From the NCBI GenBank assembly GCA_028287185.1, contig JAQBQD010000155.1, positions 33,609-97,608 of the forward strand: 64,000 bases of DNA, read 5' to 3'. The notes under the pieces were generated by a model, which saw only the letters and a program-made list of their open reading frames with translations, made no database searches and had not been told where the DNA came from. Below are positions 41,763-56,368 of this stretch, piece after piece. The translations under genes were made by a program, and so were the position numbers. The stretch is from Gemmatimonadota bacterium (GTDB lineage: Bacteria; Gemmatimonadota; Gemmatimonadetes; Longimicrobiales; Longimicrobiaceae). Position 1 is the stretch's first letter. Each line of letters opens with the position of its first letter.

Positions 41763-42833
41763 TTACGCGTATCGACAGATGAGCAGCACGGCCAGCGCGA
41801 ATCCGCAGACGGTGGCGATACCCAGCCCGGTATCCAGCCGCTCCGCGCGGCGCTCCCCAAGGCGGTCGCCCAGGCGGAACACGGCCACGGAGGCGAGGAT
41901 CGAGAGGAAGACCACCGCCATCGCCAGCACGTGCAGCTTGTCCGTGAGGGTGAACTCGCCCGTCTCGGGCAGGCTGCCGGCCGCGACCACGTACGACGAC
42001 ACCACGCCGAACACGCTCGCCAGCCCCAGCCCCAGCCGCGCATCCACCTGCCTCGCGGAGAGCAGGGTGGCGAGAAAGCCGACGCCGACGGAGATGAACA
42101 TCACCAGGAAGGTCTTCAGGAAGATTCCGGCGCCGGGACGGCGAAGCGGGATGCCCAGCTCGAAGTGCGAGTACACCTCGTCCGCCGCGCCGGCCTCCTC
42201 GCTGCCCAGCGGCGGGTACGTGTGGCGTGTGGCGTCCACGCGCGCTGGGTCCAGGATCCAGCCCGGCAGCCGCACCCGGGGGTCCATCAGCGCCCAGCGG
42301 CGGTCGGGCACGTACGTCAGCTCGCGCACCGTGTGCTGTCCGTCCTCCACCATCACCCGCAGCACGTGCGCGTCCAGCGGATAGCGGCGCTGGTCCAGCG
42401 GCTCGTGGAAGCGGTACTGGCACCGGTAGGTGACGGACCTTCCCTTCGGTCCCGTGGACTCCGCCTCCTTGTCCTGCTGCTCGCGCGTGCCGTTCAGGAT
42501 GCTGAACCCGGTGGGGTCCACATCTCCCGTCCACTCGAACCACAGGTCGAAGTCCACGAAGTACGTGCCCGCCTTCAGGTTCACGTCGTACACGTCGCGC
42601 ACGTAGATCCCCACCCGCACCGGCTCCGGCCCGGCTTTCTCCGCCGCGGAAGGCGTCGCCGTCGAAGCCGACTCGCCGCGCCGCTCGACCCGTGCGCTGC
42701 GATCAGATCTCGAAGCAGTCGACGAGGTCTGCACGTCCGCCGGCGCTTGACCACCGAGAGGGGCCGGATGGACGACGAGAAGGAGGGCGGCGGCGAGCGG
42801 AAAGGCGGAACGACGGGCGGCGGAACGGAGCAT
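41763..42833 (-). CDS. Pentameric ligand-gated ion channel (pLGIC/Cys-loop-receptor-like) homolog
   Basis: ATG at 42831-42833; signal peptide MLRSAARRSAFPLAAALLLVVHPAPLGG; about 220-aa extracellular domain with an RYPLDAHVLRVMVEDG loop resembling the F/YPxD Cys-loop core; pre-M1 IPLRRPGAGIF then 4 C-terminal TM helices. Confidence 0.55.
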   Translation of the reverse strand: MLRSAARRSAFPLAAALLLVVHPAPLGGQAPADVQTSSTASRSDRSARVERRGESASTATPSAAEKAGPEPVRVGIYVRDVYDVNLKAGTYFVDFDLWFEWTGDVDPTGFSILNGTREQQDKEAESTGPKGRSVTYRCQYRFHEPLDQRRYPLDAHVLRVMVEDGQHTVRELTYVPDRRWALMDPRVRLPGWILDPARVDATRHTYPPLGSEEAGAADEVYSHFELGIPLRRPGAGIFLKTFLVMFISVGVGFLATLLSARQVDARLGLGLASVFGVVSSYVVAAGSLPETGEFTLTDKLHVLAMAVVFLSILASVAVFRLGDRLGERRAERLDTGLGIATVCGFALAVLLICRYA

Positions 42834-43049
42834 CGGGTCCGTGCGTCGGATGGGATCCGCGTTGGCCTGCGGGGACTGGATCGATCGGAAAGTACCGGTG
42901 GGACCGATGCTGCCCCGGCGATCGGCTGATGATGCCCGACGGCGCCGGACGCCGCCTCGCGCCAACGCCACGCACGATACGCAATGCGGACGATGGGCGC
43001 GAGAGCGGCGTGCTTCGACGGTGGGGCTTGAGTGGATGCGGCGCGCCGG

Positions 43050-43850
43050 CTACTCGGGCGCGGAGAAGCGGGCGAGCATCCCGCGCACGTCCTCCAGCGA
43101 GGCGCCGGGGTGCCGCTCGCGGATGAGCGCCACGATGCCGGCGATGTGCGGCGCCGCGAAGCTGGTGCCGCTGCGGGGGATGCGGCGGCCGCCCAGCCAC
43201 AGCACCGGCACCTCCAGGCCCCAGGCCAGGCACTCCATCGCCTCGTCGGGCCGATACCGGAAGGTGAAGGGAGAGTCGAGCTTGCCCGCGTCCACGCCCA
43301 CCGCGTTCTCGAAGACGGCGGGATAGCTCCAGCCGCCCACGTTGTTGCCCGCGGCCACCACGATGGTGCCCTGCCGCCGCGCGCGCTCGCACAGCACGTA
43401 CAGGTGGTCGCGAGTGTCGTCGCGGGTGGTGCCCAGGCTCATGTTCACCACGTCCACCCGCTCCTCCACCGCCCAGCGCAGCGCCTCGCACAGCACCGAG
43501 GGCGACGTCTCCAGCCCCGCGCCGAACACCCGCGCGGGCAGCACGCGCGCGTCCGGGGCCATGCGCAGGATCTGGTCGGCGCAGGCGGTGCCGTGGCCGT
43601 TACGGTCGCCGTCGTCGTCGCTGCGCCCCAGCGCCAGCTCGTCCGCCGTGCTGGCCAGGCCGATGCCGGGCAGCACGCGCGGCTCCGGCAGCGAGCGGTC
43701 CCACCCGCTGTCGATGACCGCCACCCGCACCCCGCGCCCCGTCGCGTCGCCCAGCTCGCGCGCCACCCACGCCGGCCGCGCCGTGGGCGGCGCCGGCTCG
43801 TACGGAAGCGAGGGAAGGGAGGTCCTCCGCGCGCCCGCCGTGCCGCTCAT
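43050..43850 (-). CDS. lanP: Subtilisin-like S8 serine protease, candidate lanthipeptide leader peptidase LanP
   Basis: ATG (cat 43848-43850) overlaps the HlyD stop (ATGA); catalytic triad motifs VAVIDSG (Asp), HGTACA (His), GTSFAAPH (Ser); 266 aa with no obvious signal peptide. Confidence 0.8.
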   Translation of the reverse strand: MSGTAGARRTSLPSLPYEPAPPTARPAWVARELGDATGRGVRVAVIDSGWDRSLPEPRVLPGIGLASTADELALGRSDDDGDRNGHGTACADQILRMAPDARVLPARVFGAGLETSPSVLCEALRWAVEERVDVVNMSLGTTRDDTRDHLYVLCERARRQGTIVVAAGNNVGGWSYPAVFENAVGVDAGKLDSPFTFRYRPDEAMECLAWGLEVPVLWLGGRRIPRSGTSFAAPHIAGIVALIRERHPGASLEDVRGMLARFSAPE

Positions 43851-45037
43851 TCGGGGCGTCCCTCCATGCGGTCCCACAGGTAGTCCCACACCAGCACGAT
43901 CACCCGGCCGCGGCGGGTCACGATCTGCCCCTCCACCGTGTAGCCGCGCCGGAACTTGTGGATGCCGATGCGGTCCAGCTGGCGCTGGTCCAGTCGCGCC
44001 GTCACCCGGTACAGGCCCCCCGCCTGCGGCACCCCGCCCGCCGCGGCGGCCGGCGACGCGGAGAGCGGCTCGGGGCTCACGTACACCACGCTGCCGCGCA
44101 GGCGCTCGTCCTCGTCGGCGTTGAAGGCCTGCACCTGCACCTGCACCGAGTCGCCGAGGCGGATGCGGTGCACGTCGCGCTCGCGCACCAGCAGGTTCAC
44201 CCGCCACCCGTCCAGGTCGGCCACCTCCAGCAGCTGGTCGCCCTCGCGCACGTAGCTGCCCGGCAGCCGCTCGATCTGCTCGGTCAGCACCACCCCGTGC
44301 GTGGGCGAGCGCAGCGACAACCGGCCCAGACGCTGGCGCAGCGCCGCGATCTGGGCCGTGAGCTGGGCCTGCTCCACCGTCCGCTTGTCGCGGTCGAAGC
44401 GTTCCAGCGCCAGCATGTCGCGCTGCGTGCCCCCCATGCGCACCTCCGACTCGGCGGCGCGCACCTCGGCCACGGCCAGGTCGATCGCCACGTGCTGGCC
44501 CACCCGGTAGGCCGCCAGCAGCGAGTCGGGATCGCTGCCCATCCCGTTCTCCACCATGCGCTGGCGCAGCCCGGCGCGCGCCGTCACCAGGTGGTTGCGC
44601 GCCTGCTCCACCTTCTCGTCCTGCTGCCGCACCTCCACCGGCGCCGCCCGCTCGGCCCGCGCCACGTCGATCTGCGATGCGCGGAGCTGCGCCTCCAGGC
44701 CGTCCAGGGTGGAGGCGAGCGCCAGCGGGTCCAGCCGCACCAGCTCGCGCCCGGCGGACACCGTGTCGCCCGTGCCCACCAGCACGCGGCTCACCGTGCC
44801 CGCCTCCTGCGCGCGCACCGGCCACACGCCCACGGGCTCCATGCTGCCCGCCGCCTTCACCGTCACGTGGATGGACACCAGGCACGCCACGGCCAGCGCC
44901 AGGGCGGTCAGCCCCGCCAGCGTGCCCAGGGTGAGGCCCACGGCGCGCTTCACGAAGCCGGCGCCGGGGTTGCCCTCGTCGCCCAGCGCGGGCAGCTCCA
45001 GCCGCAGGGGCGGCCGGTCCTTCGGCGCCGTGCTCAC
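43847..45037 (-). CDS. HlyD-family membrane fusion (periplasmic adaptor) protein of the lanthipeptide exporter
   Basis: GTG start (cac 45035-45037) overlapping the ABC stop (GTGA); N-terminal TM (AVGLTLGTLAGLTALALAVACLV), long coiled-coil, C-terminal beta domain; the upstream 829-aa six-frame ORF is artefactual. Confidence 0.8.
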   Translation of the reverse strand: MSTAPKDRPPLRLELPALGDEGNPGAGFVKRAVGLTLGTLAGLTALALAVACLVSIHVTVKAAGSMEPVGVWPVRAQEAGTVSRVLVGTGDTVSAGRELVRLDPLALASTLDGLEAQLRASQIDVARAERAAPVEVRQQDEKVEQARNHLVTARAGLRQRMVENGMGSDPDSLLAAYRVGQHVAIDLAVAEVRAAESEVRMGGTQRDMLALERFDRDKRTVEQAQLTAQIAALRQRLGRLSLRSPTHGVVLTEQIERLPGSYVREGDQLLEVADLDGWRVNLLVRERDVHRIRLGDSVQVQVQAFNADEDERLRGSVVYVSPEPLSASPAAAAGGVPQAGGLYRVTARLDQRQLDRIGIHKFRRGYTVEGQIVTRRGRVIVLVWDYLWDRMEGRPE

Positions 45038-46842
45038 GGCGTCTGCGCCACCGCGCGCAGGCGGCGCGCGTCGTCCACGCCGGCGCCCTGCAGCTGTCGG
45101 TAGGTCTCGCACTCCCGCATCAGCTCGGCGTGGGTGCCCGTGCCCACCACCCGGCCGGCCTCCACCACCACGATCTGGTCGGCCAGCGCCGCCGTGGCCA
45201 CGCGGTGGGTCACGAACAGCACCGTGCGCCCCTGGCCGCGGGCGAACAGGTCGCGCAGGATCTCCGTCTCCGTCTGCATGTCCACGTTGCTGGTGGCTTC
45301 GTCCAGCAGCAGCACCGGGGTGTCGCGGATGATGGCCCGCGCGATGGCCAGGCGCTGCCGCTGCCCGCCCGAGAGCGTGGCGCCCCACTCGGCGACGGAG
45401 GTGGCGTACCCGTTGGGCAGCCCCGCCACCAGCTCCTCCAGCCGGCACAGGCGCACGGCGTCGTCCACCCGCTCGCGCGAGGGCTCGTCCGCGCCCATGG
45501 TCAGGTTCTCCCAGATGGTGCCCTGCATGAGCGCGAACTCCTGCCACACCACCGAGGTCTGCCGGCGCAGGTCGGGCAGCGAGATCTTGCTCGCGGGCAC
45601 CCCGTCCAGGTACAGCTGCCCCTCGTCCGGCTCCTCCATGCGCGTCACCAGGCGCAGCAGCGACGACTTCCCGGCGCCGCTGGGGCCCACGATGGAGGTC
45701 ACGGTCCCGCGGGGAAAGTGCAGCGTCACGTCGTGCAGCACCCGCTTCTCGGCCGAGTAGCCGAACGACACGTCGCGCAGGTGGATGTCGCCGCGCATGC
45801 GGTGCGCCACGGGCGGCGCCGGCGCGTAGGCCTGCGCGGGGTCCTGCTCCACGGGCAGGTCCAGGTACTCGAACATGCGCCCCAGGTTCACGGCGCTCTG
45901 CTGGAAGTCCGAGAACAGCCCCGTGATCTGCGCCAGCGGGTTGTACAGGTATCCCATGTACGAGGTGAAGGCGATGTAGTCGCCCAGCGTCATCTCCTGG
46001 CGCAGGATGAGCATCCACGCGTACCACGTGAACACCGCCGTGCCCAGCGCGCGGATGGTGCCGTTGGCCAGCCCGAAGATCTGCCCGAAGCCGCCCGCCT
46101 TGAGCTGCACCTGCAGCGCGTCCTGCATCTGCCGCGCGGCCCGCGTGTACAGGTGGTGCTCCATCGCCAGCGCTTTCAGGGTGCGGATGTGGCTCAGCAC
46201 CTCCACCTGGAAGGCGCCCAGGTCGGCGTACGCCTCGGCGCTCCGCTTCCAGTAGCGGCGCAGCACCCGGGCCGAGAGCGTGGTCACCATCACCGTCAGC
46301 GGGATGGTGATGAGCGACACGATGGCCAGCTTCCACTGCAGGAGGAAGAGGAAGGGCGGCACCAGCAGCAGGTAGACGCCGTTCACGAACAGCGTCTCGA
46401 ACACCTTGCTCACGCTGTTCAGCGAGCTGCGCACGTCGGCGAAGCGGCTCATCACCTCGCCCACCCGATGCTCGTCGAAGAAGCGCACCGTCAGGTGCTG
46501 CAGGTGGTTGAAGAAGAGCAGCCCGGTGGCGTTGGAAAGGTGCGAGGTGGTGTAGGTGGTGAAGTAGCCCCGGATGGCGCCCATCACCGTCCCGGCGATG
46601 GTGAACGCGAAGGTGCCCAGCACCAGCATCTCCATCAGCGGCACGTTGCGCGCCGGGTAGGCCTGGTCGATGAGCAGCTTGGACAGGTACGGCGGAAGCA
46701 TGCCGAACACGCCCAGCACCAGCCCCAGGGCCATCCCCTTCATGAGGGGGCCCCAGTACGGGCGGATCAGCCGCAGCAGCCGGAAGAACTGCTGGAAGGC
46801 TTCCCGCAGCGGCGGGATGTCGGCACGGGCGGCGGGCGGCAT
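45034..46842 (-). CDS. lanT: ABC exporter (fused TMD-NBD, no N-terminal C39 peptidase domain), candidate LanT
   Basis: 602 aa; six TM helices then Walker A GPSGAGKSS, signature LSGGQRQR, Walker B LLLDEATS; absence of a C39 domain is consistent with a separate LanP (class I). Confidence 0.85.
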   Translation of the reverse strand: MPPAARADIPPLREAFQQFFRLLRLIRPYWGPLMKGMALGLVLGVFGMLPPYLSKLLIDQAYPARNVPLMEMLVLGTFAFTIAGTVMGAIRGYFTTYTTSHLSNATGLLFFNHLQHLTVRFFDEHRVGEVMSRFADVRSSLNSVSKVFETLFVNGVYLLLVPPFLFLLQWKLAIVSLITIPLTVMVTTLSARVLRRYWKRSAEAYADLGAFQVEVLSHIRTLKALAMEHHLYTRAARQMQDALQVQLKAGGFGQIFGLANGTIRALGTAVFTWYAWMLILRQEMTLGDYIAFTSYMGYLYNPLAQITGLFSDFQQSAVNLGRMFEYLDLPVEQDPAQAYAPAPPVAHRMRGDIHLRDVSFGYSAEKRVLHDVTLHFPRGTVTSIVGPSGAGKSSLLRLVTRMEEPDEGQLYLDGVPASKISLPDLRRQTSVVWQEFALMQGTIWENLTMGADEPSRERVDDAVRLCRLEELVAGLPNGYATSVAEWGATLSGGQRQRLAIARAIIRDTPVLLLDEATSNVDMQTETEILRDLFARGQGRTVLFVTHRVATAALADQIVVVEAGRVVGTGTHAELMRECETYRQLQGAGVDDARRLRAVAQTP

Positions 46843-47058
46843 CGGCGGAACGTCACTCCAGGGCTTGCGCGGGCGCGGAGGAGCCGGATCGCTCCCGCCG
46901 GGTCCGCGGAGGGCGGCCAGAAACGGCGCGATTCGCCTTTCCGGCCATCATCCAACATAACCAGAACGCTCTCCCACGCACCACTGCCTCCGCGGCGGAG
47001 GACCGGACGTCCGGCGGGAGCCTTCCCGGCCCCGCCGGCGCCCGGTCCCGCGGGCGGC

Positions 47059-47319
47059 TCAGCACTCGCAGGTCTGCGCGCAGGTGAAGCAGGTGGGGCG
47101 GCACGAGATGCCGCACGACTCGTTCGCCTGGCAGGTGTCGACGAGCGTGCAGTCGCCGCACCCGGTGTACGCGCACGACTCCTCGTCCGTGCAGAAGTAG
47201 GTGCTGCACACCCCGTCGCGCGACAGGTGCGCGTGCACCGTCCCGCGCTCCGGCTCCGCCGCCGCCGTCTCGAACGAGTCCACCGACAGCGCGTCCAGGT
47301 CCAGCCTCAGCTTGCGCAT
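47059..47319 (-). CDS. lanA: Lanthipeptide precursor peptide LanA2: FNLD-type leader + very Cys-rich core (12 Cys, 12 Ser/Thr in about 51 aa)
   Basis: ATG at 47317-47319 with gggagg RBS 7 nt upstream; MRKLRLDLDALSVDSFETAAAEPERGTVHAHLSRDGV | CSTYFCTDEESCAYTGCGDCTLVDTCQANESCGISCRPTCFTCAQTCEC; leader resembles nisin/subtilin leaders (FNLDLVSV / FDLDVVKV). Confidence 0.7.
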   Translation of the reverse strand: MRKLRLDLDALSVDSFETAAAEPERGTVHAHLSRDGVCSTYFCTDEESCAYTGCGDCTLVDTCQANESCGISCRPTCFTCAQTCEC

Positions 47320-47348
47320 GCAAACCTCCCGCTCACGGGTGTCCGCGC

Positions 47349-47454
47349 GGGCCGCGGCACCTCCGCGGCCCGAACCGGCCCGCGGTGCCCGCGGGCCTTT
47401 CCGTCCGGCAGGGGAAGGGACGCGGGGCGGGTGGAAAGGCGCCCGCCCCGCGTC
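47349..47454 (-). other. Three consecutive GC-rich stem-loops in the lanA1-lanA2 intercistronic spacer
   Basis: gggccgcgg-cacct-ccgcggccc (47349-47371), ggcccgcgg-tgc-ccgcgggcc (47378-47398), gacgcggggcggg-tggaaaggcg-cccgccccgcgtc (47419-47454); the last one follows the lanA1 stop by about 10 nt. Confidence 0.6.
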
Positions 47455-47464
47455 TCCGAAAAGG

Positions 47465-47761
47465 TCAGACGCAGTCGTACGGGAAGCCGCCGCCGGGCGC
47501 CGCGGCGGCGCCGGGGGCCAGGCCGCAGCCGTTGAAGGTCTCCGGCGGCGACGCGCCGCAGGTGCCGCCGTAGCTGTACCCGCACTGCGCCCACCCCGTG
47601 TCGGGGCACACCTGCACGACCGAGTCCGGACAGTCCGCCGTGTCGCAGAAGGCGGTGCCCACCATCCGGAGCCCCAGCACCGTTCCCCGTCCGCGCCCCG
47701 CCTCCGCCGTCTCGAACGTCTCCACGTTCAGGTCCTCGAGGTCCAGCCGCAGCTTTCTCAT
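47465..47761 (-). CDS. lanA: Lanthipeptide precursor peptide LanA1: FNLD-type leader + Cys/Gly-rich core (7 Cys, 8 Ser/Thr)
   Basis: ATG at 47759-47761 with aaggag RBS; MRKLRLDLEDLNVETFETAEAGRGRGTVLGLRMVG | TAFCDTADCPDSVVQVCPDTGWAQCGYSYGGTCGASPPETFNGCGLAPGAAAAPGGGFPYDCV; first about 28 aa are near-identical to LanA2. Confidence 0.7.
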   Translation of the reverse strand: MRKLRLDLEDLNVETFETAEAGRGRGTVLGLRMVGTAFCDTADCPDSVVQVCPDTGWAQCGYSYGGTCGASPPETFNGCGLAPGAAAAPGGGFPYDCV

Positions 47762-47885
47762 GGGGCTCCTTCCGTTCTGGGTGATGAGGGTACCCGGGCC
47801 TGCAACCTGCCTCCACCGGTTCCGAAGCGCGGCGCGCCCCGACCGACGGCGCTGGACCGGCGGAGGACCGGCCGGGCTCCGGACG

Positions 47886-49907
47886 TCAGCCCGGCACGCC
47901 CGCCCCGGCCGGCTCGCTCTCCACGAACCCGGCGCGGTAGGCCTGCCGAAGCTGCTCCAGCACGCGGCCCCGCAGCCAGTCGCGGTCGGGCGCGCGGTCG
48001 CCGGACACGGCCTCGGCCACGCGGTCCACCACGTCGTCCAGGAGCGCGGAGCCGCGCGTCGCTTCCAGCACCACGGCGGCGAAGGGCGTCAGCCGGCGCT
48101 CCACCACCTTTCCTCCGATGGACTGCAGGAGCACGAACACGTCGTCCTCGGGCGGCAGGGGCTCGCCGGCCGCGTCCTCCAGCCAGCCGTCCCAGTCGCG
48201 GAGGGAGTGGACGAGCCGCGCGCGGGGCGAGAGCGCGAAGGCGGCCTCGTCCCACGCCACCTCGTCCTCCTCCGCGCGCACCAGCGAGGCGATGAACTCC
48301 GCCGTGTTGTCCTCCACCGCCCGCCACAGCTCCACCCGCGCCAGGTCCAGCCGGGCCGCGTCCTCCAGCAGCGCAGCGCGGTCGCCGCCGCCCTCGGCGG
48401 AGATCCGGGCCTTCACGCCGTCGACCGCGGCGGCGACGGGCGAGCGTTCGCGGTTCCCGTCCGCCGCCGCCGCGGCGCGCACGGCGGCGCCATCCGCCCC
48501 CACCGCGGTGAAGGTCCGCAGCGTACGCCCCAGGTAGCCGTCCACGTCGGCCCCGCGGGCCTCGCGGCGGCCGGGCTCGGCCGCCGCGCGGTCGGGGTGC
48601 GCGCCGTCGCGGGTGACGAGGAGGACGGAGGGGACCTCCGGCAGCGCCAGGCGCAGCAGGAACCACCCGATGCCGGACTCGCCCAGCAGCAGGCCGGGGT
48701 CGGAGACTCCTCCCAGGGTGCCGCAGGGCCAGCTCACCCCGGGCCGCTCCCAGCGCTCCACGCCGGTCAGCATGCAGTCCTCCGCCGTCGTCCGCAGCGT
48801 GTCGTCGCCCAGCACGCGCGCGCCGTACAGCAGCGTCTCGCAGTTGCCCGCGCGGCCATGGCAGAGCGAGTAGTTCATCCGGTCGTCCACGATGGAGGCG
48901 AGCGTGGCGCGGAGGGCGGCCTCCGCCTCGTCGCGGTACAGGGGCTCGCCCAGCAGCTCCCACGCGCGCAGCCGGGTGAGGCCGATGCCGGGCGCGCCGT
49001 GGCACCACGCGCTCATGTGGCGCGGCTCGTAGGCGGGAAATCCCTCGGGGCTCGCGATCCGGCGGCGCAGCTCGTCGATGCGGCCGGCGTGCAGGTACTC
49101 GGACAGGTCGCTGTGGCGCAGGTCGGGCCAGTTGTCGTGCTCGGCGCTGAAGGTGCGCCGCTCGTAGACGAAGGCCTGCTCCGCGCCGTGCAGCCAGTGC
49201 CCCTCGCCGGTGGCGTCGTACAGCTCCAGCAGCGCGTGCCCGAAGCCCGCCGCGCCGTGCGCCAGCCCGTTCAGGTTGCGGGCGGACGACTGCGGCATGG
49301 TGGCCCACGACCACCCGTCGGGCTCGCGCACGGCCGTGGCCAGCAGGTTGTCGCCCATGCGCTGCGCCCGCTCCAGCATCCACGCGCCGTCCAGCTCGTC
49401 CGCCATCGCCAGCAGGGCGGGGATGGCGCCCGCCGCGCCGGCGATCACGTCCAGCCCGCGGTCCTGCGCCTCGGCGCCCTCCAGCGGCGCCAGCGTGCGG
49501 CGGGCGGCATCCCGCATCTCCTCCATCCCCAGCAGCTTCGCGGCGCGCAGGGCGGCGTAGGCGATGCCCACGCGGCCCGAGTGGAAGCCGTTCGAGCCGG
49601 GGGGTAGCCCGTCGGCCTCGGCCAGCGAGAAGCGCAGGGCCCCGGCGGCGGCGCGGGCCGCCTCGCGGTCTCCGGTGGCGGCGGCGAGCTGGGCCAGGAA
49701 GAGGGCGATGCCCGCCGTGCCCTCGTAGACGGTGCCCCCGGCGCGGGCGGGCACCGCCACGCGGGCGGCCTGGTTGTCGCGGTCGGGGCTCATCACCTGC
49801 CAGGTGCAGGCGTCGCCCTCCCACAGCGCCTGGGACGCCACGCGCGCGCCGATGCGCGCGGCCGCGTCCAGCAGCGCGCCGCTGCGGGGGTTCTCCGGGT
49901 TGGGCAT
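47886..49907 (-). CDS. lanC: LanC-type lanthipeptide cyclase with about 240-aa C-terminal extension of unknown function
   Basis: ATG at 49905-49907 (MPNPENPRSGALLDAAARIG...); LanC zinc-ligand/active-site motifs GLAHGAAGFGHALLEL, WCHGAPGIGL, LCHGRAGNCE; ORF continues about 240 aa beyond the usual LanC end without any Met. Confidence 0.8.
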   Translation of the reverse strand: MPNPENPRSGALLDAAARIGARVASQALWEGDACTWQVMSPDRDNQAARVAVPARAGGTVYEGTAGIALFLAQLAAATGDREAARAAAGALRFSLAEADGLPPGSNGFHSGRVGIAYAALRAAKLLGMEEMRDAARRTLAPLEGAEAQDRGLDVIAGAAGAIPALLAMADELDGAWMLERAQRMGDNLLATAVREPDGWSWATMPQSSARNLNGLAHGAAGFGHALLELYDATGEGHWLHGAEQAFVYERRTFSAEHDNWPDLRHSDLSEYLHAGRIDELRRRIASPEGFPAYEPRHMSAWCHGAPGIGLTRLRAWELLGEPLYRDEAEAALRATLASIVDDRMNYSLCHGRAGNCETLLYGARVLGDDTLRTTAEDCMLTGVERWERPGVSWPCGTLGGVSDPGLLLGESGIGWFLLRLALPEVPSVLLVTRDGAHPDRAAAEPGRREARGADVDGYLGRTLRTFTAVGADGAAVRAAAAADGNRERSPVAAAVDGVKARISAEGGGDRAALLEDAARLDLARVELWRAVEDNTAEFIASLVRAEEDEVAWDEAAFALSPRARLVHSLRDWDGWLEDAAGEPLPPEDDVFVLLQSIGGKVVERRLTPFAAVVLEATRGSALLDDVVDRVAEAVSGDRAPDRDWLRGRVLEQLRQAYRAGFVESEPAGAGVPG

Positions 49908-49945
49908 GGGGGCCACGCTCGCTTCTCCTGCCGGTGACGGGGGGC

Positions 49946-50917
49946 TCACGCCGTGGCCTCTGCGCCGGCCGGGGCCGGCACCGCCAGGGCGCGGTGGATC
50001 AGGTACGCCAGGTACGACTCCTCCTGGATGCTGACGCCCAGGCGGTTGTTCATCATGTGCACGTAGCTGGGCACGATGGCCGCGACGGCGAACTCCCAGG
50101 TGTCGATCGCCCCGCCCTCGCGAAGCAGTCGCCCGGCGTCGAACAGCTCGCGGAAGCGGACGCGCACCTCCGCCAGGTCGTCGCGCCAGCGGTCCAGCGC
50201 CTCGGAGAGCTCCTCGCCCGTCGCCAGTCGCTCCCAGGCCTCGTCCACGTACGCCGTCAGGTTCCCCGCCTGCTGCTCGAAGCCGCTGCCGAAGGCGTCC
50301 AGCCACGCGCTACGCCGCTCGTCGTCGGGCACCATCGAGCGCAGGTAGTTGATGCCGTACTGCCGCGCGAACTCCGCGGCCGCTGTGCGCTCGGGGTGGA
50401 AGGCGTGCACCAGCACCACCATCGCCAGCAGCCCCTTGCCCAGGCGGCCGCTGCGCTCGGTGGGGTGCACGCGCGCCAGCAGGGCCAGCGCGGCTTCGCT
50501 GGAGCGGTGGAAGAGCTCTTCCGCCAGCAGCACGCCGTCGGGGCCGCCGTAGCGCTCCGTCTCCGGCTCGTACACCGCCTCGGCCACGTGCGTCACCCCC
50601 TCGCCGCCGCTGCCGATGGGCTCCGGATAGCCCTCCTGAAGGTCGGGATACAGGGCCGCCAGGTGCCTGCGCAGCGCGGGCCTCACCTCGCGCTCCAGCA
50701 CGTCGCGCTCGCCGTGGAACCGCAGCCGCACGTGGAAGCCGCGCTCGCTGTAGCGGATGAAGAACCACCGGTCGGCCCACCCGCGCTCGGCGCAGGCGCG
50801 GACGAACGGCTCCACGGCGTCGCGCACGATGGCGTCGCAGTCCCCGCCGTAGATGTTCTCGCGCAGGAACAGGTACTCGCTCAGCCAGGCCTTCTCCATC
50901 TCAGGCGAGGGCGGCAT
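49946..50917 (-). CDS. lanB: Lanthipeptide dehydratase, glutamate-elimination domain (Lant_dehydr_C/SpaB_C-like); stand-alone ORF of a split LanB
   Basis: 323 aa; MPPSPEMEKAWLSEYLF...WFFIRYSERGFHVRLRFHG matches the WF(F/Y)IRY...H(L/V)RLR start of LanB C-terminal domains; overlaps the upstream ORF by 17 nt in a different frame. Confidence 0.75.
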   Translation of the reverse strand: MPPSPEMEKAWLSEYLFLRENIYGGDCDAIVRDAVEPFVRACAERGWADRWFFIRYSERGFHVRLRFHGERDVLEREVRPALRRHLAALYPDLQEGYPEPIGSGGEGVTHVAEAVYEPETERYGGPDGVLLAEELFHRSSEAALALLARVHPTERSGRLGKGLLAMVVLVHAFHPERTAAAEFARQYGINYLRSMVPDDERRSAWLDAFGSGFEQQAGNLTAYVDEAWERLATGEELSEALDRWRDDLAEVRVRFRELFDAGRLLREGGAIDTWEFAVAAIVPSYVHMMNNRLGVSIQEESYLAYLIHRALAVPAPAGAEATA

Positions 50918-53900
50918 GCGCCTCCCCCCGCGCGGGCGCGGCGCCGGCGTTCGCGGTCCCCTCCGGAAAGTCGAGCTGCACCACCATCTCCGTGGCCCAG
51001 CGCCCGCCGGCCACCTCGGCCAGCGCGTCGGGCCCGGGCAGGCGCTCCTCCACGATCACGTTGAAGTGCTTCACCCCCGCGGCCAGCTTGCCCAGCAGCC
51101 CCACCAGCAGCGGGTTGCCAAAGTCCATGAACTGCGGCTTGTAGAAGTCGCGCGACGGCGTGGTCACCTTCACCGGCGGGCCCTTCGCGTCGTCCTCCGC
51201 CTTCGCTCCCTCGGCCTCGGCCGCCTTCGCCGCCTCGGGCTGCTCCGGCTCGTCCGCGGCGGGCATCGCCTCGGCGCCCACGTTCATGGCCGCCTCCTGG
51301 GCGTCCATCGCCGCCGGCGTCTCGTCCCCCGGCTTCTTGGCCGCGGGGTCCGGAATGGGGATCATCCGCACGTAGCAGCTTTCCGGCAGCCCCGCGTCGC
51401 GCCGCCAGCGGGTGGCGCGCACGAAGAAGTCGGCGGCCGTCTCGTCCGCCGCGCGCTGCGGGACGAGGACGCCCGGCACCAGCCACCGCCGCCGGGTCAC
51501 CAGCACCCGCCCGCCTATGGAGATGCGCGGCCGGTGCGAGATCTCCGGCGGGGCAGGGGGCGGCGCCTCGGCCTTCGTCTCCTCGGCGGACGCATCCTCC
51601 GCGGTCGCCGCCTCAGCTCCGGCGTCCGCCGAGGCGATGGAATCCGTGGCCTCGCCGTCCGCCGTCTTCGCGACCCCATCGGACGCAACCACCTGCGCAG
51701 CGGCGGACGCTTCCGGCGCCGCGGCGTCCGCGGTATCGGGAGATGCGACGCCCTCCACGGGGGCGGCCGTATCCGCAGCCGCATCGACCGGCACGCCGTC
51801 GGCCGGCGGAGCCGGGCGCGGCGGGTTGACGGGCGTCTCGGGCACGGACGGCGCGAAGGTGACGGGCGGGGTGAAGCGCGACAGGAGCTGGTACAGCGGC
51901 GGCCGCATGCGCGGGTTCAGGAACCCCAGGTCCACGGGGATCACCCGCCGGCCGCTGGGCCCGTGGCGCAGGGCGAGCGAGTGCGGGTCCTCGGGATCCG
52001 GCTCCACGAACAGGTCCGAGCTGCGGAGCTGGTCGGCCGCGTCGCCGCTCTCGCCCGTGGGGTAGCTGATCTCCCAGCGCATCAACGAGGGGTGCAGGTT
52101 GGCGTTGAACTGCGCATCGCCGCAGATCTCCGCCAGCAGCTCGTCCGTGAGCGCCTGGTTGCCGGCGCGCACCTCCTCCAGGAAGTCTTCCGGCAGCATG
52201 TACAGGAAGCGCGAGAAGTACTTGCCGTACCCCGCGGTGTAGCTGCCGCTCTGCAGCAGGAAGGCGGGGTCGCCCCCCTCCTCGCGCGGGGGCACCAGCA
52301 GGGTGAACGCGCTCACGGAGCGGCACGGCGCCGGCTGCGGCTCGACCCCCGCCAGGGCCTCCTCCACCTCGGCCAGCGGGATCGTGACCTCGGCCGCGTC
52401 GGGCGCCTCGCGCCAGCGCGCCACGATGCGCTCCTGCAGCCGCATGCGCGCCTCGTTGAGCGCCTGGATAAAGGGCAGCTTGAAGGGGTTGTTGACGTCG
52501 TATCCCTCCAGCGCCGCCTTGTCCGCCCCGCCGCGCGCCTTCTGCTCCTTCTCCACGTGCGCCTTGAAGTGCTCGCGGTAGAAGTCCTCGTAGAACTGCA
52601 AAAGCGGCACGCCGTGCCGGTCGCCGTACTGCATGTCGAAGAAGTGCCGCATGGTGGCCTGCTCGGCCCGCGGCCACGCCAGGCGCGAGGTGAGGCGCGC
52701 CCAGTCCACCAGCGCGTCCGTGGCCCGACGCACGCCGGGCGTGAGCGCCACGGTGGCGTCCGCGTCGGCCGTGGCGTCCTCGTAGAACGGCATGTCCTTC
52801 CGCAGGCGGGCCTTCACCTCCATGGCCGTGAACGCCTCGTCGATGGCGGCGTGGATCTCGGCCACCACGGCCTCGCGCCTCTCCACCGGCGCCGCCGCGT
52901 AGGCGTCCGTGCGCTCTCGCACCTGGCGCAGCAGGGCGGCGGCGCGCGTGGCGTGCTCGTCGTCCAGCGCGTCCAGCAGCGCGGCGAAGGGCAGGTCCCA
53001 GTCGGCGTCCTGCTCGCGGATGCCGGTGTGGAAGCGCAGGAAGCCGATCTCGATCAGCTTCTCCAGGTACGCCTCCGCCTCCTCGGTGCTGGCGTCGATC
53101 TGCGGATCGCGCGTCAGCCGGTCCACCAGGTCGCCCAGCGTGGGCGCCGGGTCGGCGGCGAACACCTGCGTGATCACCTGCAGCACCTCGTTGGCGGCCA
53201 CGCGCTGGAACACCTCGCGCCCCTGCACGGCCGACAGGAAGACCAGGCGGGCGCCCTCGGTGCGCAGCGTGGGGTTGGGCTCCACCACCAGCCGCCGCCG
53301 CACGCCGGGCCGCTCCTTGAGGTGATCCAGCAGGATGCCGTACAGCAGCTTGTTGATGCGCACGAAGCTGCGCTTGGCCCGGGGGTCGCCGTGCAGGCGC
53401 AGCAGGCCGCCCTCGCCGTCCTCCGCCGCCCCGTCCTCGGTGAAGCGGCCGGGGACCACGGCGCAGAACGCCGCGAAGGGCGTCGCCTTCATGGCCATGC
53501 GCGTGTAGTAGCGCAGCAGCCCGCGCTCCGTCTTCTCGTCCTTGCCCGAGAGCGCGCCGGCCGTTCCCGCCGTGTAGCGGTCCAGCGACGCGTGCAGCGA
53601 ACGGCTGGACACCAGCAGCCCCTTCCGGAACTCCGGATCGCGCAGCAGCTGGCGGAAGGCCGCCCGGGCCGTTCCGCTCTCCTCGCCGTACGCCGCCGCC
53701 ACCTCCGCCGCCAGCGCGTCGCGCTCCACCAGCGCCTGCTGCAGCGCTCCAACCTCGGATGCCTGCTCGGTGGAGAGCTGCGCGCAGGCGCCTTCCAGCA
53801 CCTCCGCCGGCAGCGGACGCAGGTTGAACAGCTCGCGCCGGGCGCGCAGCAGGCGTTTGCGCGCCGCGCCGTCGTCCCCCGCCGCGCCGATGGCGGCGAA

Positions 53901-54116
53901 CAGCAGGGCCGAGACGGCCTCGCGGCGCTCCGCGAGCGCGTCCTCGGCCGCCAGCAGCGCGTCCAGGCGCTCCAGCGTGCGGGTGGCGCGCATCTGCTCG
54001 ACGCCGTCCACCGGCGCGCCCGAGATCCGGCATACGAAGCGGCGCACCAGGCGCTCGGCCTCCCGCCCGGGGCGGTCCTCGTTCCAGGTGTCGGCGGTCA
54101 CTTCGGCGTTCTCCAT
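50901..54116 (-). CDS. lanB: Lanthipeptide dehydratase, glutamylation domain (Lant_dehydr_N-like) with long Ala/Pro/Asp/Glu-rich low-complexity inserts
   Basis: ATG at 54114-54116 (MENAEVTADTWNEDRPG...); motif YYTRMAMKATPFAAFCAV corresponds to the conserved Y.TRM..R.TPFGLF of LanB; 1071 aa; the upstream part of the 1144-aa six-frame ORF is non-coding-like. Confidence 0.75.
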   Translation of the reverse strand: MENAEVTADTWNEDRPGREAERLVRRFVCRISGAPVDGVEQMRATRTLERLDALLAAEDALAERREAVSALLFAAIGAAGDDGAARKRLLRARRELFNLRPLPAEVLEGACAQLSTEQASEVGALQQALVERDALAAEVAAAYGEESGTARAAFRQLLRDPEFRKGLLVSSRSLHASLDRYTAGTAGALSGKDEKTERGLLRYYTRMAMKATPFAAFCAVVPGRFTEDGAAEDGEGGLLRLHGDPRAKRSFVRINKLLYGILLDHLKERPGVRRRLVVEPNPTLRTEGARLVFLSAVQGREVFQRVAANEVLQVITQVFAADPAPTLGDLVDRLTRDPQIDASTEEAEAYLEKLIEIGFLRFHTGIREQDADWDLPFAALLDALDDEHATRAAALLRQVRERTDAYAAAPVERREAVVAEIHAAIDEAFTAMEVKARLRKDMPFYEDATADADATVALTPGVRRATDALVDWARLTSRLAWPRAEQATMRHFFDMQYGDRHGVPLLQFYEDFYREHFKAHVEKEQKARGGADKAALEGYDVNNPFKLPFIQALNEARMRLQERIVARWREAPDAAEVTIPLAEVEEALAGVEPQPAPCRSVSAFTLLVPPREEGGDPAFLLQSGSYTAGYGKYFSRFLYMLPEDFLEEVRAGNQALTDELLAEICGDAQFNANLHPSLMRWEISYPTGESGDAADQLRSSDLFVEPDPEDPHSLALRHGPSGRRVIPVDLGFLNPRMRPPLYQLLSRFTPPVTFAPSVPETPVNPPRPAPPADGVPVDAAADTAAPVEGVASPDTADAAAPEASAAAQVVASDGVAKTADGEATDSIASADAGAEAATAEDASAEETKAEAPPPAPPEISHRPRISIGGRVLVTRRRWLVPGVLVPQRAADETAADFFVRATRWRRDAGLPESCYVRMIPIPDPAAKKPGDETPAAMDAQEAAMNVGAEAMPAADEPEQPEAAKAAEAEGAKAEDDAKGPPVKVTTPSRDFYKPQFMDFGNPLLVGLLGKLAAGVKHFNVIVEERLPGPDALAEVAGGRWATEMVVQLDFPEGTANAGAAPARGEAHAALA

Positions 54117-54571
54117 CGTCACCGGAAGGATCTGTTGCGGCAGAATGTGGCAGAAACAGGCAGGCGCGCCGGCCGCGCTGGTCTCGCGGCAGGAATCGGC
54201 CTGCCGAGCAGCCGTGGGCCGAGCCAGGATATGCGATACAAAGCGCTTACGGATGATATTCGCGGAGCCCAAATCTCGCAAGCCGCCGCCATTTGCGTAG
54301 GGCCGCACCCGTCCGCGCCCACCATCCCAGATCACCAGCAGCCATCTCGTTGCTCCTGCGCCCCTTCCGTCTTTTCAGACGCCCGCAGGCGATCGAGTCT
54401 CTGGAACGCCGGCGAATTCTCCACGTCGCAAAGGGAGCGAACCATACATCAGAAATCGACTGGACCGGCTACAGGTGTTTCGATCCCCGGCATGTCTCCC
54501 GTGCTCGGAGCTCGAGGCCCCTCGTCGAAAGAAGTCCGGCCCTTCCGTCCCCGCTGACGGCGTGCGGAGCG

Positions 54572-54862
54572 TTACTGCTCCACCTGCACGCCCTTCCAGA
54601 ACGCCACGTGATCGCGAATGTTCGCGGCGGGGTCCTTCGGCTCCGGGTAGTACCAGGCCGCGTCGCGATTCGTCTCGCCGTCCACCACCACGTCGTAGTA
54701 GCTGGCCGTTCCCTTCCACGGGCAGACGGTCTGCGTGGCGCTGTCGCGAAAGTGCTCGCGGCTCACCGCATCCGGCGGAAAGTAGACGTTGCCCTCCACC
54801 ATCTGCACCCGCTCCTGCGGCGCCTCGGCGATCACGGCGCCCTTCCACGTTGCCTTCGGCAT
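54572..54862 (-). CDS. DUF427-domain protein
   Basis: ATG at 54860-54862: MPKATWKGAVIAEAPQERVQMVEGNVYFPPDAVSREHF...CPWKGTASYYDVVVDGETNRDAAWYYPEPK matches the DUF427 pattern. Confidence 0.6.
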   Translation of the reverse strand: MPKATWKGAVIAEAPQERVQMVEGNVYFPPDAVSREHFRDSATQTVCPWKGTASYYDVVVDGETNRDAAWYYPEPKDPAANIRDHVAFWKGVQVEQ

Positions 54863-55000
54863 GCGACGTTCTCCTGGCCTGTGGATTCGCTGCGGTTCCG
54901 GACCCGTCCGACGCGATTCCACTACGGCGGCGGAAGATGGATGCATCCTGCAACAGTTCATCGTCCACCTCGACGTGCGGCGCTCCTGCGGGAGAGGAAT

Positions 55001-55756: not shown

Positions 55757-55780
55757 GCGGGGCGCGGGGTTCCGGCCGGT

Positions 55781-55888
55781 TCCACAATTGTGGATAACGA
55801 CGGTGGATAAACCTGGGATGTTTCTGTGGAAAATCTGCAACCCAATGTGGGACGCAGGTTTAAGACTGCACACCGCGTTTGTGGAGAA
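55781..55888. promoter_or_regulatory. Cluster of DnaA-box-like 9-mers (candidate oriC element or DnaA-regulated region)
   Basis: TGTGGATAA (55789-55797, perfect DnaA box), GGTGGATAA (55802-55810), TGTGGAAAA (55825-55833), TGTGGAGAA (55880-55888), plus inverted TTCCACA (55781-55787); locally A/T-richer; about 3.5 kb from parAB-mnmG. Confidence 0.5.
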
Positions 55889-56356: not shown

Positions 56357-56368
56357 TCTCTCACGCCC

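What the first reader, a model, noticed from the sequence alone, without database searches (positions are those of the whole stretch)
43050..54116. Complete class I lanthipeptide (lantibiotic-type) biosynthetic gene cluster
Eight co-directional minus-strand genes form one unit. In transcription order they are LanB glutamylation domain, LanB elimination domain, LanC, lanA1, lanA2, a C39-less ABC exporter, an HlyD adaptor and an S8 subtilase. Start/stop overlaps (GTGA between ABC and HlyD, ATGA between HlyD and LanP) indicate translational coupling. The LanB and LanC signature motifs and the nisin-like precursor leaders are all readable in the sequence. The HlyD adaptor fits export across a double membrane. 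No lanI, lanFEG or lanRK homologs are in the window, so immunity and regulation are unexplained. The surrounding genome (prkA-yeaH-spoVR, GC about 70%) is not from a classical lantibiotic-producing lineage, so the product is likely uncharacterised.
Basis: partly seen in the sequence, partly recalled or inferred. Interest (0 to 1): 0.9.

Follow-up and report, generated by a model that had tools for sequence, protein, structure and literature searches.

The report
Pinensin-type lanthipeptide gene cluster, Gemmatimonadota
This is a real and apparently functional gene cluster for ring-forming, cysteine-rich peptides (class I lanthipeptides), an uncharacterised soil-bacterial relative of the known pinensin cluster, and its ring-closing enzyme carries an extra built-in domain that probably binds the peptide.

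Summary
Eight co-directional minus-strand genes at 43050-54116 encode a split LanB (PF04738 4e-47, PF14028 7.5e-47), a LanC (PF05147 6.6e-55), two precursors (98 and 86 aa), an ABC exporter without a C39 domain, a HlyD adaptor and a short S8 protease. The GTGA and ATGA overlaps are present.

The interpretation as a class I lanthipeptide cluster holds, with four refinements.
- The source is a Gemmatimonadota (Longimicrobiaceae-like) MAG. The same six-gene scaffold with 1-7 precursors recurs in many Longimicrobium MAGs and, at 33-50% GC, in Bacteroidota-type contigs.
- The leaders are pinensin-type (KLxLxLxxLxVESFxT...GTVxG) rather than nisin-type.
- The S8 has no signal peptide or prodomain, so leader removal is probably cytoplasmic.

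The cores are long (about 55-67 aa, 7-12 Cys). The A2 core is under strong purifying selection. More than 2400 relatives, mostly with xx[S/T]C repeats and up to 21 Cys, have no characterised member that I found.

I file it as a new member of a known kind, with moderate interest.

The parts
54253..54281 (-). Candidate sigma-70-like promoter (TTGCGA-17-TATCAT), 137 nt upstream of the lanB-N start, in the lower-GC intergenic region
   Evidence: this was the only match in 12.7 kb, against 0.1 expected from shuffles. It is a consensus match only, not shown to be functional.
50901..54116 (-). LanB-N: glutamyl-tRNA-dependent glutamyl transferase half of a split LanB (1071 aa). It carries two low-complexity Ala/Pro/Glu-rich inserts at residues ~758-858 and ~922-982.
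   Evidence: PF04738 4.3e-47. The closest solved relatives are the split-LanB proteins TbtB (6ec7, 4e-31 with the family profile) and a goadsporin protein (9jhq); NisB was not matched. Inserts.
49946..50917 (-). LanB-C: stand-alone glutamate lyase (elimination) half, 323 aa
   Evidence: PF14028 7.5e-47 and TIGR03891 2.5e-35. The family profile aligns R122 (ERYGG motif) with NisB Arg826 and H287 (HMMNNRL) with NisB His961. The FFIRY Arg55 aligns with FFIRY of MibB. All three are invariant in 10 homologues.
48615..49916 (-). LanC cyclase domain (residues ~1-434 of the 676-aa protein)
   Evidence: PF05147 6.6e-55. The best NCBIfam match is the cyclase end of the LanM model TIGR03897 (2.2e-78). 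H217, C302, C349 and H350 are invariant in 56 homologues. I equate them with NisC His212 and its Zn ligands Cys284, Cys330 and His331 from motif context and memory, not from an alignment made here. The model has pLDDT 92.9 and matches CuvL, LicM2, LanCL1, MadC and NisC.
47886..48614 (-). C-terminal extension of LanC (~245 aa): a helical bundle followed by a beta-sheet and three helices, resembling a RiPP recognition element
47465..47761 (-). lanA1 precursor, 98 aa. Leader ~1-31 (MRKLRLDLEDLNVETFETAEAGRGRGTVLGL); core ~67 aa with 7 Cys and 8 Ser/Thr.
   Evidence: An orthologue in L012 is 65% identical and shares CPDTG.QCGYSYGGTCGASPP. The gene was called independently in L011.
47320..47464 (-). 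GC-rich stem-loops downstream of lanA1
   Evidence: MFE -97.5 kcal/mol, z = -4.2 against shuffles. A role in attenuation or mRNA stability is inferred.
47059..47319 (-). lanA2 precursor, 86 aa. Leader ~1-31 (MRKLRLDLDALSVDSFETAAAEPERGTVHAH); core 55 aa with 12 Cys and 13 Ser/Thr. Its C-terminal part is a run of xx[S/T]C units (ESC GISC RPTC FTC AQTC EC).
   Evidence: NF038180 leader_pinensin scores 19.7 bits, below its cut-off of 24. The core is 53/55 identical to the L012 orthologue, with 9 synonymous and 2 conservative changes, whereas the leader has 10 non-synonymous changes.
46920..47058 (-). GC-rich stem-loop downstream of lanA2
   Evidence: MFE -86.1 kcal/mol, z = -4.4.
45034..46842 (-). 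ABC exporter (TMD plus NBD, 602 aa) without an N-terminal C39 peptidase domain
   Evidence: PF00664 1.6e-41 and PF00005 8.2e-31; no C39 domain. It aligns to bacteriocin and type I secretion ABC models only from their position ~145 onward. It is 88% identical to the L012 orthologue.
43847..45037 (-). HlyD-family periplasmic adaptor (396 aa). Its GTG start overlaps the ABC stop (GTGA).
   Evidence: HlyD_D23 1.7e-15 and HlyD_3 6.5e-15. TIGR01843 type_I_hlyD 1.1e-25, below its cut-off. Junction read.
43050..43850 (-). Short S8 subtilase (266 aa) with no signal peptide or prodomain: the putative intracellular leader peptidase. Its ATG overlaps the HlyD stop (ATGA).
   Evidence: PF00082 1.4e-24. Best NCBIfam hit is QhpE NF049966, 133.8 bits against a cut-off of 165. 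It aligns end to end with mature subtilisin BPN' and keeps the DSG, GHGT, GN and SGTS motifs that I take to be the Asp32/His64/Asn155/Ser221 equivalents (positions assigned from memory of subtilisin numbering). Junction read.

Best explanation
This is a functional, operon-organised class I lanthipeptide biosynthetic gene cluster of the pinensin type (split LanB), from a Gemmatimonadota (Longimicrobiaceae-like) soil bacterium.

Proposed mechanism:
1. The eight genes are transcribed as one unit from upstream of lanB-N. Stable hairpins after each lanA probably raise precursor mRNA levels relative to the downstream genes (inferred).
2. A1 and A2 are translated with a ~31-residue leader, KLRLDLxxLxV(E/D)(S/T)FET...RGTVxG/A. 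It contains both an LxLD and an Lx4F motif.
3. LanB-N esterifies core Ser/Thr with glutamate from Glu-tRNA(Glu). LanB-C carries the canonical anti-elimination residues (equivalents of NisB R826 and H961, plus the FFIRY Arg). It eliminates glutamate to give Dha and (Z)-Dhb.
4. LanC adds Cys thiols to these residues at its zinc site to form (methyl)lanthionine rings. Its fused C-terminal TglI/DUF2063-like domain holds the leader, or docks the split LanB, so that long cores with up to 12 Cys can be processed (inferred from the fold).
5. The signal-less, prodomain-less S8 removes the leader in the cytoplasm, probably just after the conserved GT(V/I)xG(Q/H/L) motif (inferred).
6. The C39-less ABC transporter and the HlyD adaptor, with an unlinked outer-membrane channel, export the product across the diderm envelope (inferred).

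Shown here: gene content, catalytic residues, synteny, selection on the precursors and the fold of the extra domain. Inferred: ring chemistry and topology, leader binding by the extra domain, the cleavage site, and the compartment where cleavage happens.
For: - Pfam and NCBIfam hits for all six proteins.
- Lyase R122 and H287 align with NisB R826 and H961 and are invariant.
- LanC H217, C302, C349 and H350, the presumed catalytic His and Zn ligands, are invariant in 56 homologues. The LanC model has pLDDT 92.9 and matches lanthipeptide cyclases.
- The S8 keeps the subtilisin active-site motifs and aligns only to the mature subtilisin domain.
- Translational coupling junctions are present.
- The six-gene scaffold is conserved with 1-7 precursors in Longimicrobium MAGs and in contigs of 33-50% GC.
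- The leader motif and the GT(V/I)xG motif are conserved from 33% to 72% GC. One low-GC relative passes NF038180 leader_pinensin at 28.4 bits against a cut-off of 24.
- The A2 core is under purifying selection.
- Cys and Ser/Thr counts are near 1:1 in the cores: 12 to 13 in A2 and 7 to 8 in A1.
- No YcaO or other RiPP enzyme was found among the scanned genes of the window.
Against: - No product has been observed.
- A1 gives no hit and A2 only a sub-threshold hit to the curated pinensin leader model.
- Many Ser/Thr residues sit directly before a Cys (7 of 12 Cys in A2). That geometry is rarely cyclised, so the ring pattern cannot be predicted, and some Cys may stay free or form disulfides.
- The glutamylation-domain catalytic residues were not mapped.
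- The extra LanC domain could serve protein-protein docking rather than leader binding.
- No terminator, regulator, immunity gene or TolC-like gene is linked.
- The promoter is only a consensus match.
Confidence: 0.85

Rival explanations
1. The enzymes are as annotated, but the mature products are not mainly thioether-bridged antibiotics. They would be Cys-rich, metal-binding or disulfide-stabilised peptides in which only some Cys are cyclised, acting as metallophores or metal buffers rather than lantibiotics.
For: Pinensins, the only characterised members of this leader family, bind Zn(II) with nanomolar Kd (PMC13532221). In the 120 best relatives Cys outnumbers Ser/Thr (18.3 against 15.8 per core), and ~70% of Cys directly follow a Ser/Thr, which is an awkward geometry for ring closure. 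No immunity genes are linked.
Against: The window's own cores have slightly more Ser/Thr than Cys (13 to 12 and 8 to 7), as expected if each Cys finds a dehydro partner. LanC retains the invariant residues of its presumed Zn site and a dedicated lyase is present. According to that paper, pinensin's Zn binding most likely involves histidines.
Confidence: 0.12
2. The cluster makes a thiopeptide-like or other non-lanthipeptide RiPP. Its split LanB resembles the thiopeptide/goadsporin dehydratases, and the stand-alone PF14028 protein could be a cycloaddition enzyme rather than a lyase.
For: LanB-N is closest to TbtB and a goadsporin protein, not to NisB. LanB-C hits TIGR03891 'thiopeptide-type bacteriocin biosynthesis' and, weakly, the TbtD pyridine synthase model. 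The leader contains the thiopeptide-type Lx4F motif (PMC12710340).
Against: The TbtD model scores 54 bits against a cut-off of 325. LanB-C keeps the lyase Arg and His that align with NisB R826 and H961. No YcaO, cyclodehydratase or dehydrogenase was found among the scanned genes of the window. A LanC with conserved active-site residues sits in the operon in every relative.
Confidence: 0.03
3. The cluster is a silent or decaying remnant, and the small ORFs are not expressed.
For: No regulator is linked. Two related MAG loci (L005, L006) have no recognisable precursor between LanC and the ABC gene.
Against: All ORFs are intact with GC3 of 0.90-0.97. Overlapping start/stop codons and SD sites are kept. 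The A2 core shows 9 synonymous against 2 conservative substitutions relative to a genome whose enzymes are only 69-75% identical.
Confidence: 0.03

Closest known systems
Pinensin biosynthetic gene cluster (Chitinophaga pinensis; class I lanthipeptide with split LanB PinB1/PinB2 and PinC)
   Same: - Split LanB plus a separate LanC (PMC7268733, PMC9680876).
- A LanC whose best model match is the cyclase end of LanM, as reported for pinensin-family LanCs (PMC7268733).
- A leader of the KLxLxxLxVESFxT...GTxxG type recognised by NF038180.
- Bacteroidota-type relatives with a leader that passes NF038180 have the same LanBN-LanBC-LanC(+domain)-ABC-HlyD-S8 layout.
   Different: - Different phylum (Gemmatimonadota, 72% GC).
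- The window's leaders fall below the model cut-off.
- The cores are far longer (55-67 aa) than my recollection of pinensin (about 22 aa) and much richer in Cys.
- There is no adjacent two-component regulator, unlike L014 and L018, which carry a kinase-regulator pair, and L017, which carries a response regulator.
- I could not read the original pinensin paper or obtain the PinC sequence. Whether PinC itself carries the C-terminal domain, and whether that cluster has the HlyD and S8 genes, is untested.
SapT (spt) cluster and other split-LanB class I systems
   Same: A separate glutamyl transferase and glutamate lyase plus a LanC (PMC9011353, PMC9890492).
   Different: SptBb is a syn-eliminating lyase that lacks the catalytic His and Arg and uses a Lys. 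The window's LanB-C keeps the canonical His and Arg, so anti-elimination and (Z)-Dhb are predicted. The leader family also differs.
Nisin-type class I clusters (NisB, NisC, NisT, NisP)
   Same: The same chemistry is predicted: Glu-tRNA-dependent dehydration, Zn-dependent cyclisation, a C39-less ABC exporter and an S8 leader peptidase. The leader carries an LxLD variant of the FNLD box.
   Different: - LanB is split and is closer to TbtB.
- LanC carries an extra recognition-type domain.
- The S8 has no signal peptide, prodomain or anchor.
- A HlyD adaptor is present.
- There are no LanI, LanFEG or LanRK genes.
TglI / MbnC / NGO1945 (DUF2063-type RiPP recognition partner proteins of MNIO enzymes)
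   Different: Here the module is covalently fused to a lanthipeptide cyclase rather than partnering a DUF692/MNIO enzyme. Sequence identity is 11-12%. No Pfam family reaches its threshold.
QhpE (subtilisin-like leader peptidase of quinohemoprotein amine dehydrogenase maturation)
   Same: It is the best NCBIfam match for the S8 (5.3e-39). Both are short and consist of the catalytic domain only. From my own knowledge, QhpE cleaves the leader inside the cell before ABC export.
   Different: The score (133.8 bits) is below the equivalog cut-off (165), and the substrate class is different.

Membership tests
Class I lanthipeptide BGC | LanB glutamylation domain (PF04738) | tested here: met
   4.3e-47, 161 bits against a cut-off of 28. 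The family profile hits TbtB at 4e-31. Catalytic residues of this domain were not mapped.
Class I lanthipeptide BGC | Glutamate-elimination domain (PF14028) with catalytic Arg and His | tested here: met
   7.5e-47. R122 aligns with NisB R826 and H287 with NisB H961; both are invariant in 10 homologues, as is the FFIRY Arg55.
Class I lanthipeptide BGC | Stand-alone LanC with Zn ligands (Cys, Cys, His) and catalytic His | tested here: met
   PF05147 6.6e-55. H217, C302, C349 and H350 are invariant in 56 sequences; their equivalence to the NisC residues rests on motif context, not on an alignment made here. The fold matches NisC, MadC and LanCL1.
Class I lanthipeptide BGC | Adjacent precursor(s) with a leader and a Ser/Thr/Cys-rich core | tested here: met
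   A1 and A2. Their family has 2441 clusters. The A2 core is under purifying selection.
Class I lanthipeptide BGC | Product contains lanthionine or methyllanthionine | not testable with these tools
   Needs expression and mass spectrometry or NMR.
Pinensin family (NCBIfam NF038180 leader_pinensin) | Leader scores at or above the curated cut-off of 24 bits | tested here: not met
   A2 scores 19.7 bits (E 5.8e-4) and A1 gives no hit. The L012 orthologue of A2 scores 23.1 bits. The second precursor of the low-GC relative L014 passes at 28.4 bits.
Pinensin family | Split LanB with a LanM-like LanC | tested here: met
   There are two separate ORFs. The best NCBIfam hit for LanC is the LanM model, positions 544-930, at 2.2e-78. 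The feature is as described in PMC7268733.
Thiopeptide BGC | YcaO-type cyclodehydratase or dehydrogenase, and a [4+2] pyridine synthase | tested here: not met
   No such Pfam family was found in any scanned gene of the window. The TbtD model scores 54 bits against a cut-off of 325.
RiPP recognition element (PqqD-like / DUF2063-TglI type) for the LanC C-terminal domain | Winged-helix-like fold (beta-sheet followed by three helices) resembling solved RREs | tested here: met
RiPP recognition element | Sequence membership in PF05402 (PqqD) or PF22106 (NGO1945_C) | tested here: not met
   The window sequence gives no hit. Among homologues, 16 of 22 hit PqqD with a best E of 2e-4 and 7 of 22 hit NGO1945_C with a best E of 0.006; I judge these too weak for family membership, though the scores were not compared with the gathering cut-offs.
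RiPP recognition element | Binds the leader peptide | not testable with these tools
It needs a binding assay or a co-fold.
QhpE-type subtilisin (NF049966) | Score at or above the 165-bit equivalog cut-off | tested here: not met
   133.8 bits. The subtilisin active-site motifs are nevertheless kept.
Bacteriocin cleavage/export ABC (C39-ABC, TIGR01193) | N-terminal C39 peptidase domain | tested here: not met
   There is no Peptidase_C39 hit. The alignment to TIGR01193 starts at model position 171.
Tripartite type I-like export (ABC, HlyD, TolC) | A linked outer-membrane factor | tested here: not met
   No OEP/TolC family was found among the scanned genes of the window. It may be encoded elsewhere in the genome.

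The most novel reading that the evidence does not exclude
The window is one representative of a very large, uncharacterised radiation in Longimicrobiaceae. I found more than 2400 precursor clusters at 90% identity and at least 120 LanC clusters. The products would be exceptionally long (50-90 residue) and heavily cross-linked 'ladder' lanthipeptides built from periodic xx[S/T]C units, with up to 21 Cys. They would be made by a cyclase that has acquired its own TglI/DUF2063-type leader-recognition module, a domain fusion I did not find described for any LanC. If these cores are fully cyclised, they would be, to my knowledge, the most densely bridged lanthipeptides known. The fused module would show that class I cyclases can be RRE-dependent in their own right.
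Probability: 0.35. Interest if true: 0.7.

Novelty: new member of a known kind. Interest (0 to 1): 0.5.

Why it matters
No lanthipeptide from Gemmatimonadota has been characterised, as far as I could find. L. terrae was reported only as having three antiSMASH-predicted lanthipeptide clusters with no similarity to known compounds (PMC7291104).

This cluster links that phylum to the pinensin family. Pinensins are antifungal and, according to a 2026 report, chelate zinc and restore carbapenem activity (PMC13532221).

The work points to three testable things:
- An unusually conserved 55-residue, 12-Cys core (A2).
- A fused recognition-type domain on LanC that could explain how long, multi-ring substrates are handled.
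- A huge natural library of xx[S/T]C-repeat cores that could be used to study or engineer ring topology.

Tried and rejected
- Searching the 5.8-billion-protein index with the LanC C-terminal domain alone gave only one hit, a fragment, because of the word filter. The full-length query and the exhaustive representative search replaced it.
- A sequence search of the domain against the PDB found nothing significant. Only the fold comparison was informative.
- Pfam found nothing on the precursors, even at E of 10. A precomputed PF27846.1 label on two relatives could not be resolved because that model is not in the local copy.
- The terminator scan found no T-run terminators. Only GC-rich hairpins were found.
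- Rfam and tRNA scans of the window were empty.
- The downstream membrane protein (41763-42971) was considered as an immunity candidate and rejected. It has no homologue next to any related cluster (contexts) and only a weak DUF998 hit.
The pinensin cluster itself was therefore not compared directly.
- No precursor was found in the LanC-ABC gap of L005 or L006 with either of two motif searches. Those gaps contain short repeats instead.
- The syn-eliminating (SptBb-like) lyase idea was rejected because the canonical His and Arg are present.
- Literature searches for a LanC-RRE fusion or for Longimicrobium lanthipeptide chemistry found no description. Absence from the held library is not proof of absence.

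Full report
**Observation.** The window is about 72% GC, so I selected real genes by third-position GC and by reading the ORFs. Between 43050 and 54116 there are eight co-directional minus-strand genes. An independent public gene call on the identical contig (L011, Logan SRR13312994) lists the same eight.

| Gene | Coordinates | Pfam result |
|---|---|---|
| LanB-N | 50901-54116 | PF04738, 4.3e-47 |
| LanB-C | 49946-50917 | PF14028, 7.5e-47 |
| LanC | 47886-49916 | PF05147, 6.6e-55 |
| ABC | 45034-46842 | ABC_membrane + ABC_tran, no C39 |
| HlyD | 43847-45037 | HlyD_D23, HlyD_3 |
| S8 | 43050-43850 | PF00082, 1.4e-24 |

- The GTGA and ATGA start/stop overlaps are present.
- LanB-N and LanB-C overlap by 17 nt.
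- LanC most likely starts at the GTG at 49916, 8 nt after an AGGAG.
- Both precursor ATGs have Shine-Dalgarno sequences.
- A single sigma-70-like match lies 137 nt upstream of lanB-N.
- Strong GC-rich hairpins follow each precursor gene, with z of -4.2 and -4.4.

**Source and relatives.** The LanC is 100% identical to a protein of a 'Gemmatimonadetes bacterium' MAG (JWM27_3516) on a 158-kb contig. All named relatives are Longimicrobium or Longimicrobiaceae.

The order LanBN-LanBC-LanC-[precursors]-ABC-HlyD-S8 is conserved in L002-L008, L012 and L013, with one to seven precursors. The closest relative, L012 (LanC 69% identical), sits in the same gidA-parAB-M23-bactofilin-NIF3-DUF427 neighbourhood. 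L013 sits elsewhere. Genes outside the eight are not conserved, which fixes the unit's boundaries. The rest of the scanned window looks like housekeeping genes, including the prkA-DUF444-spoVR operon, with no YcaO, radical SAM, LanFEG, LanI or linked LanRK.

**Enzymes.**
- *LanB-N* is closer to split-LanB glutamyl transferases of thiopeptide and goadsporin pathways (TbtB 6ec7, 4e-31 with a family profile; 9jhq) than to NisB, which was not matched.
- *LanB-C* keeps the canonical lyase residues. A profile of ten homologues aligns R122 (ERYGG) with NisB Arg826 and H287 (HMMNNRL) with NisB His961. The FFIRY arginine matches MibB. All three are invariant. It is therefore an 'anti' glutamate lyase, not the SptBb-type syn-lyase that lacks these residues (PMC9011353, PMC9890492).
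- *LanC* has invariant H217, C302, C349 and H350, which I read as the catalytic His and the Zn ligands. Its best NCBIfam match is the cyclase end of the LanM model. Walker et al. reported the same for pinensin-family LanCs (PMC7268733).
- *S8* keeps the DSG, GHGT, GN and SGTS motifs of the subtilisin active site. It aligns end to end with mature subtilisin only, with a 35-residue non-hydrophobic N-terminus. Its nearest curated family is the intracellular leader peptidase QhpE, below that model's cut-off.

**An unnoticed domain.** LanC is 676 aa, about 245 aa longer than a normal LanC.
- The extension has no Pfam hit in the window sequence. It is conserved in at least 120 full-length homologues.
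- In 1.84 billion representatives it matches 352 clusters. In the roughly 100 full-length proteins (600 aa or more) among the 150 listed, the match lies at about residues 380-730, mostly 430-680. The other ~50 listed are 79-572 aa and look like fragments.
- AlphaFold2 models are confident: the full protein has pLDDT 92.9 and pTM 0.92, and the domain alone has pLDDT 89.9.
- Foldseek with the full-length model also finds TglI chains.
- Homologues give weak PqqD hits (16 of 22) and weak NGO1945_C hits (7 of 22).
- I found no description of an RRE-type domain fused to a LanC in the held literature.

That this domain binds the leader, or docks the split LanB, is an inference from the fold.

**Precursors.**
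- A1 (98 aa) and A2 (86 aa) share the leader MRKLRLDL(E/D)xLxV(E/D)(S/T)FET...RGTVxG/A.
- A2 gives a sub-threshold hit to NCBIfam NF038180 'pinensin family lanthipeptide' (19.7 bits against a cut-off of 24). A1 gives none.
- Low-GC relatives found through the LanC domain have the same gene layout and the same leader. They are L014 (33% GC), L017 (35%) and L018 (50%, next to a Por_Secre_tail protein, which suggests Bacteroidota). Their leaders read MKKLKLELNDLKVESFETT...GTIQGQ and MEKIKLNLDDLRVESFQT...RGTVHGL. One of them passes NF038180 end to end at 28.4 bits.
- The window's cluster is therefore a divergent member of the pinensin-type family, which spans two phyla.
- The leader contains both an LxLD motif (the FNLD variant) and an Lx4F motif (thiopeptide type; motif definitions from PMC12710340).
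- The 28-position model ends at the GT(V/I)xG(Q/H) motif, so I place the leader/core boundary at about residue 31.

**Cores.**
- The A2 core (55 aa) has 12 Cys and 13 Ser/Thr, and ends in xx[S/T]C units. The A1 core (67 aa) has 7 Cys and 8 Ser/Thr.
- Against the L012 orthologue, the A2 core is 53/55 identical, with 9 synonymous and 2 conservative changes. Its leader has 10 non-synonymous changes in 31 codons, and the enzymes are only 69-75% identical. This is direct evidence that the peptide is expressed and functionally constrained.
- A profile of 17 precursors retrieves 2441 clusters. Every source name given among the 120 listed hits (12) is Longimicrobium or Longimicrobiaceae.
- The dominant subfamily reads ...GTVFG(Q/E)QCTCYTQCTCPGCPTCDASCNGTC(xx[S/T]C)n plus a variable tail. 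Its cores have a mean of 18 Cys (maximum 21) in about 76 residues. About 70% of Cys follow a Ser or Thr, and the modal Cys spacing is 4.
- I found no literature on these peptides.

**Mechanism.**
- *Shown:* the gene set, catalytic residues, coupling, synteny, selection on the precursors, and the fold of the extra domain.
- *Inferred:* LanB-N glutamylates and LanB-C eliminates to give Dha/(Z)-Dhb. LanC, tethered to the leader through its fused recognition module, closes the thioether rings. The cytoplasmic S8 removes the leader near GTVxG. The C39-less ABC and the HlyD adaptor, with an unlinked outer-membrane channel, export the product.
- *Unknown:* the ring topology. The [S/T]C adjacency allows several patterns.

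**Rivals.**
- A partly uncyclised, metal-binding product is possible. Pinensins bind Zn with nanomolar Kd (PMC13532221), and the wider family has excess Cys. The window's own cores, however, have enough Ser/Thr for every Cys.
- A thiopeptide-like pathway is unlikely: there is no YcaO, the TbtD model scores far below its cut-off, and the lyase residues are intact.
- Decay is unlikely given the selection signal.

**Verdict.** It is a new, uncharacterised member of a known kind: the pinensin-type, split-LanB class I lanthipeptide cluster. Interest is moderate. It comes mainly from the LanC-fused recognition domain, which is apparently undescribed, and from the very large family of long, Cys-dense cores to which this cluster belongs.

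Noticed in passing
window 51545-51845 and 51173-51353 (minus strand, inside LanB-N): There are two low-complexity Ala/Pro/Glu/Asp/Thr-rich inserts, at residues ~758-858 and ~922-982 of LanB-N. They are in frame. Relatives vary in total length (960-1071 aa).
   Followed up: partly
window 54572-61116; L012 1-5351: The cluster lies next to a gidA-parA-parB-M23 peptidase-bactofilin-NIF3-DUF427 block. The same neighbourhood is kept in the closest relative (L012) but not in L013. Downstream genes differ between the window and L012, which suggests insertion at a fixed site.
   Followed up: partly
L014 397-2206; L018 372-2135; L017 4319-4981: Bacteroidota-type relatives carry two-component genes next to the cluster: a histidine kinase (HisKA_3 in L018) plus a GerE-type response regulator in L014 and L018, and a response regulator in L017. 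The window and the Longimicrobium loci lack these.
   Followed up: no
L014 10380-12236: One low-GC relative has an additional S41 (C-terminal processing) peptidase between the second precursor and the ABC gene. It is absent from the window.
   Followed up: no
L005 7294-8210; L006 7103-8006: In two Longimicrobium MAG loci the LanC-ABC gap holds no recognisable precursor. It contains short direct repeats instead (for example GCAACGCGGATG.CACGTTGCCGGATCAAGGCAC in L005).
   Followed up: partly
P0136, P0166 (relatives' precursors): Both carry a precomputed Pfam label, PF27846.1, that is absent from the local Pfam copy. Someone may already have curated a family for these Cys-rich precursors.
   Followed up: partly
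window 41763-42971 (minus strand): A 356-402 aa protein with a signal-peptide-like N-terminus, a soluble domain and C-terminal transmembrane helices lies immediately downstream of the S8. It has only a weak DUF998 hit and is not conserved beside related clusters.
   Followed up: partly
   Followed up: yes
window 19001-20000: GC drops to 57% between a cNMP-binding/methyltransferase gene and htpG. There is no Rfam or tRNA hit there, and I did not examine it further.
   Followed up: no
L012 17825-17983: A 52-aa glycine-zipper-like membrane peptide is encoded just after the S8 in the closest relative. The window has no counterpart. It could be an immunity candidate in that genome.
   Followed up: no
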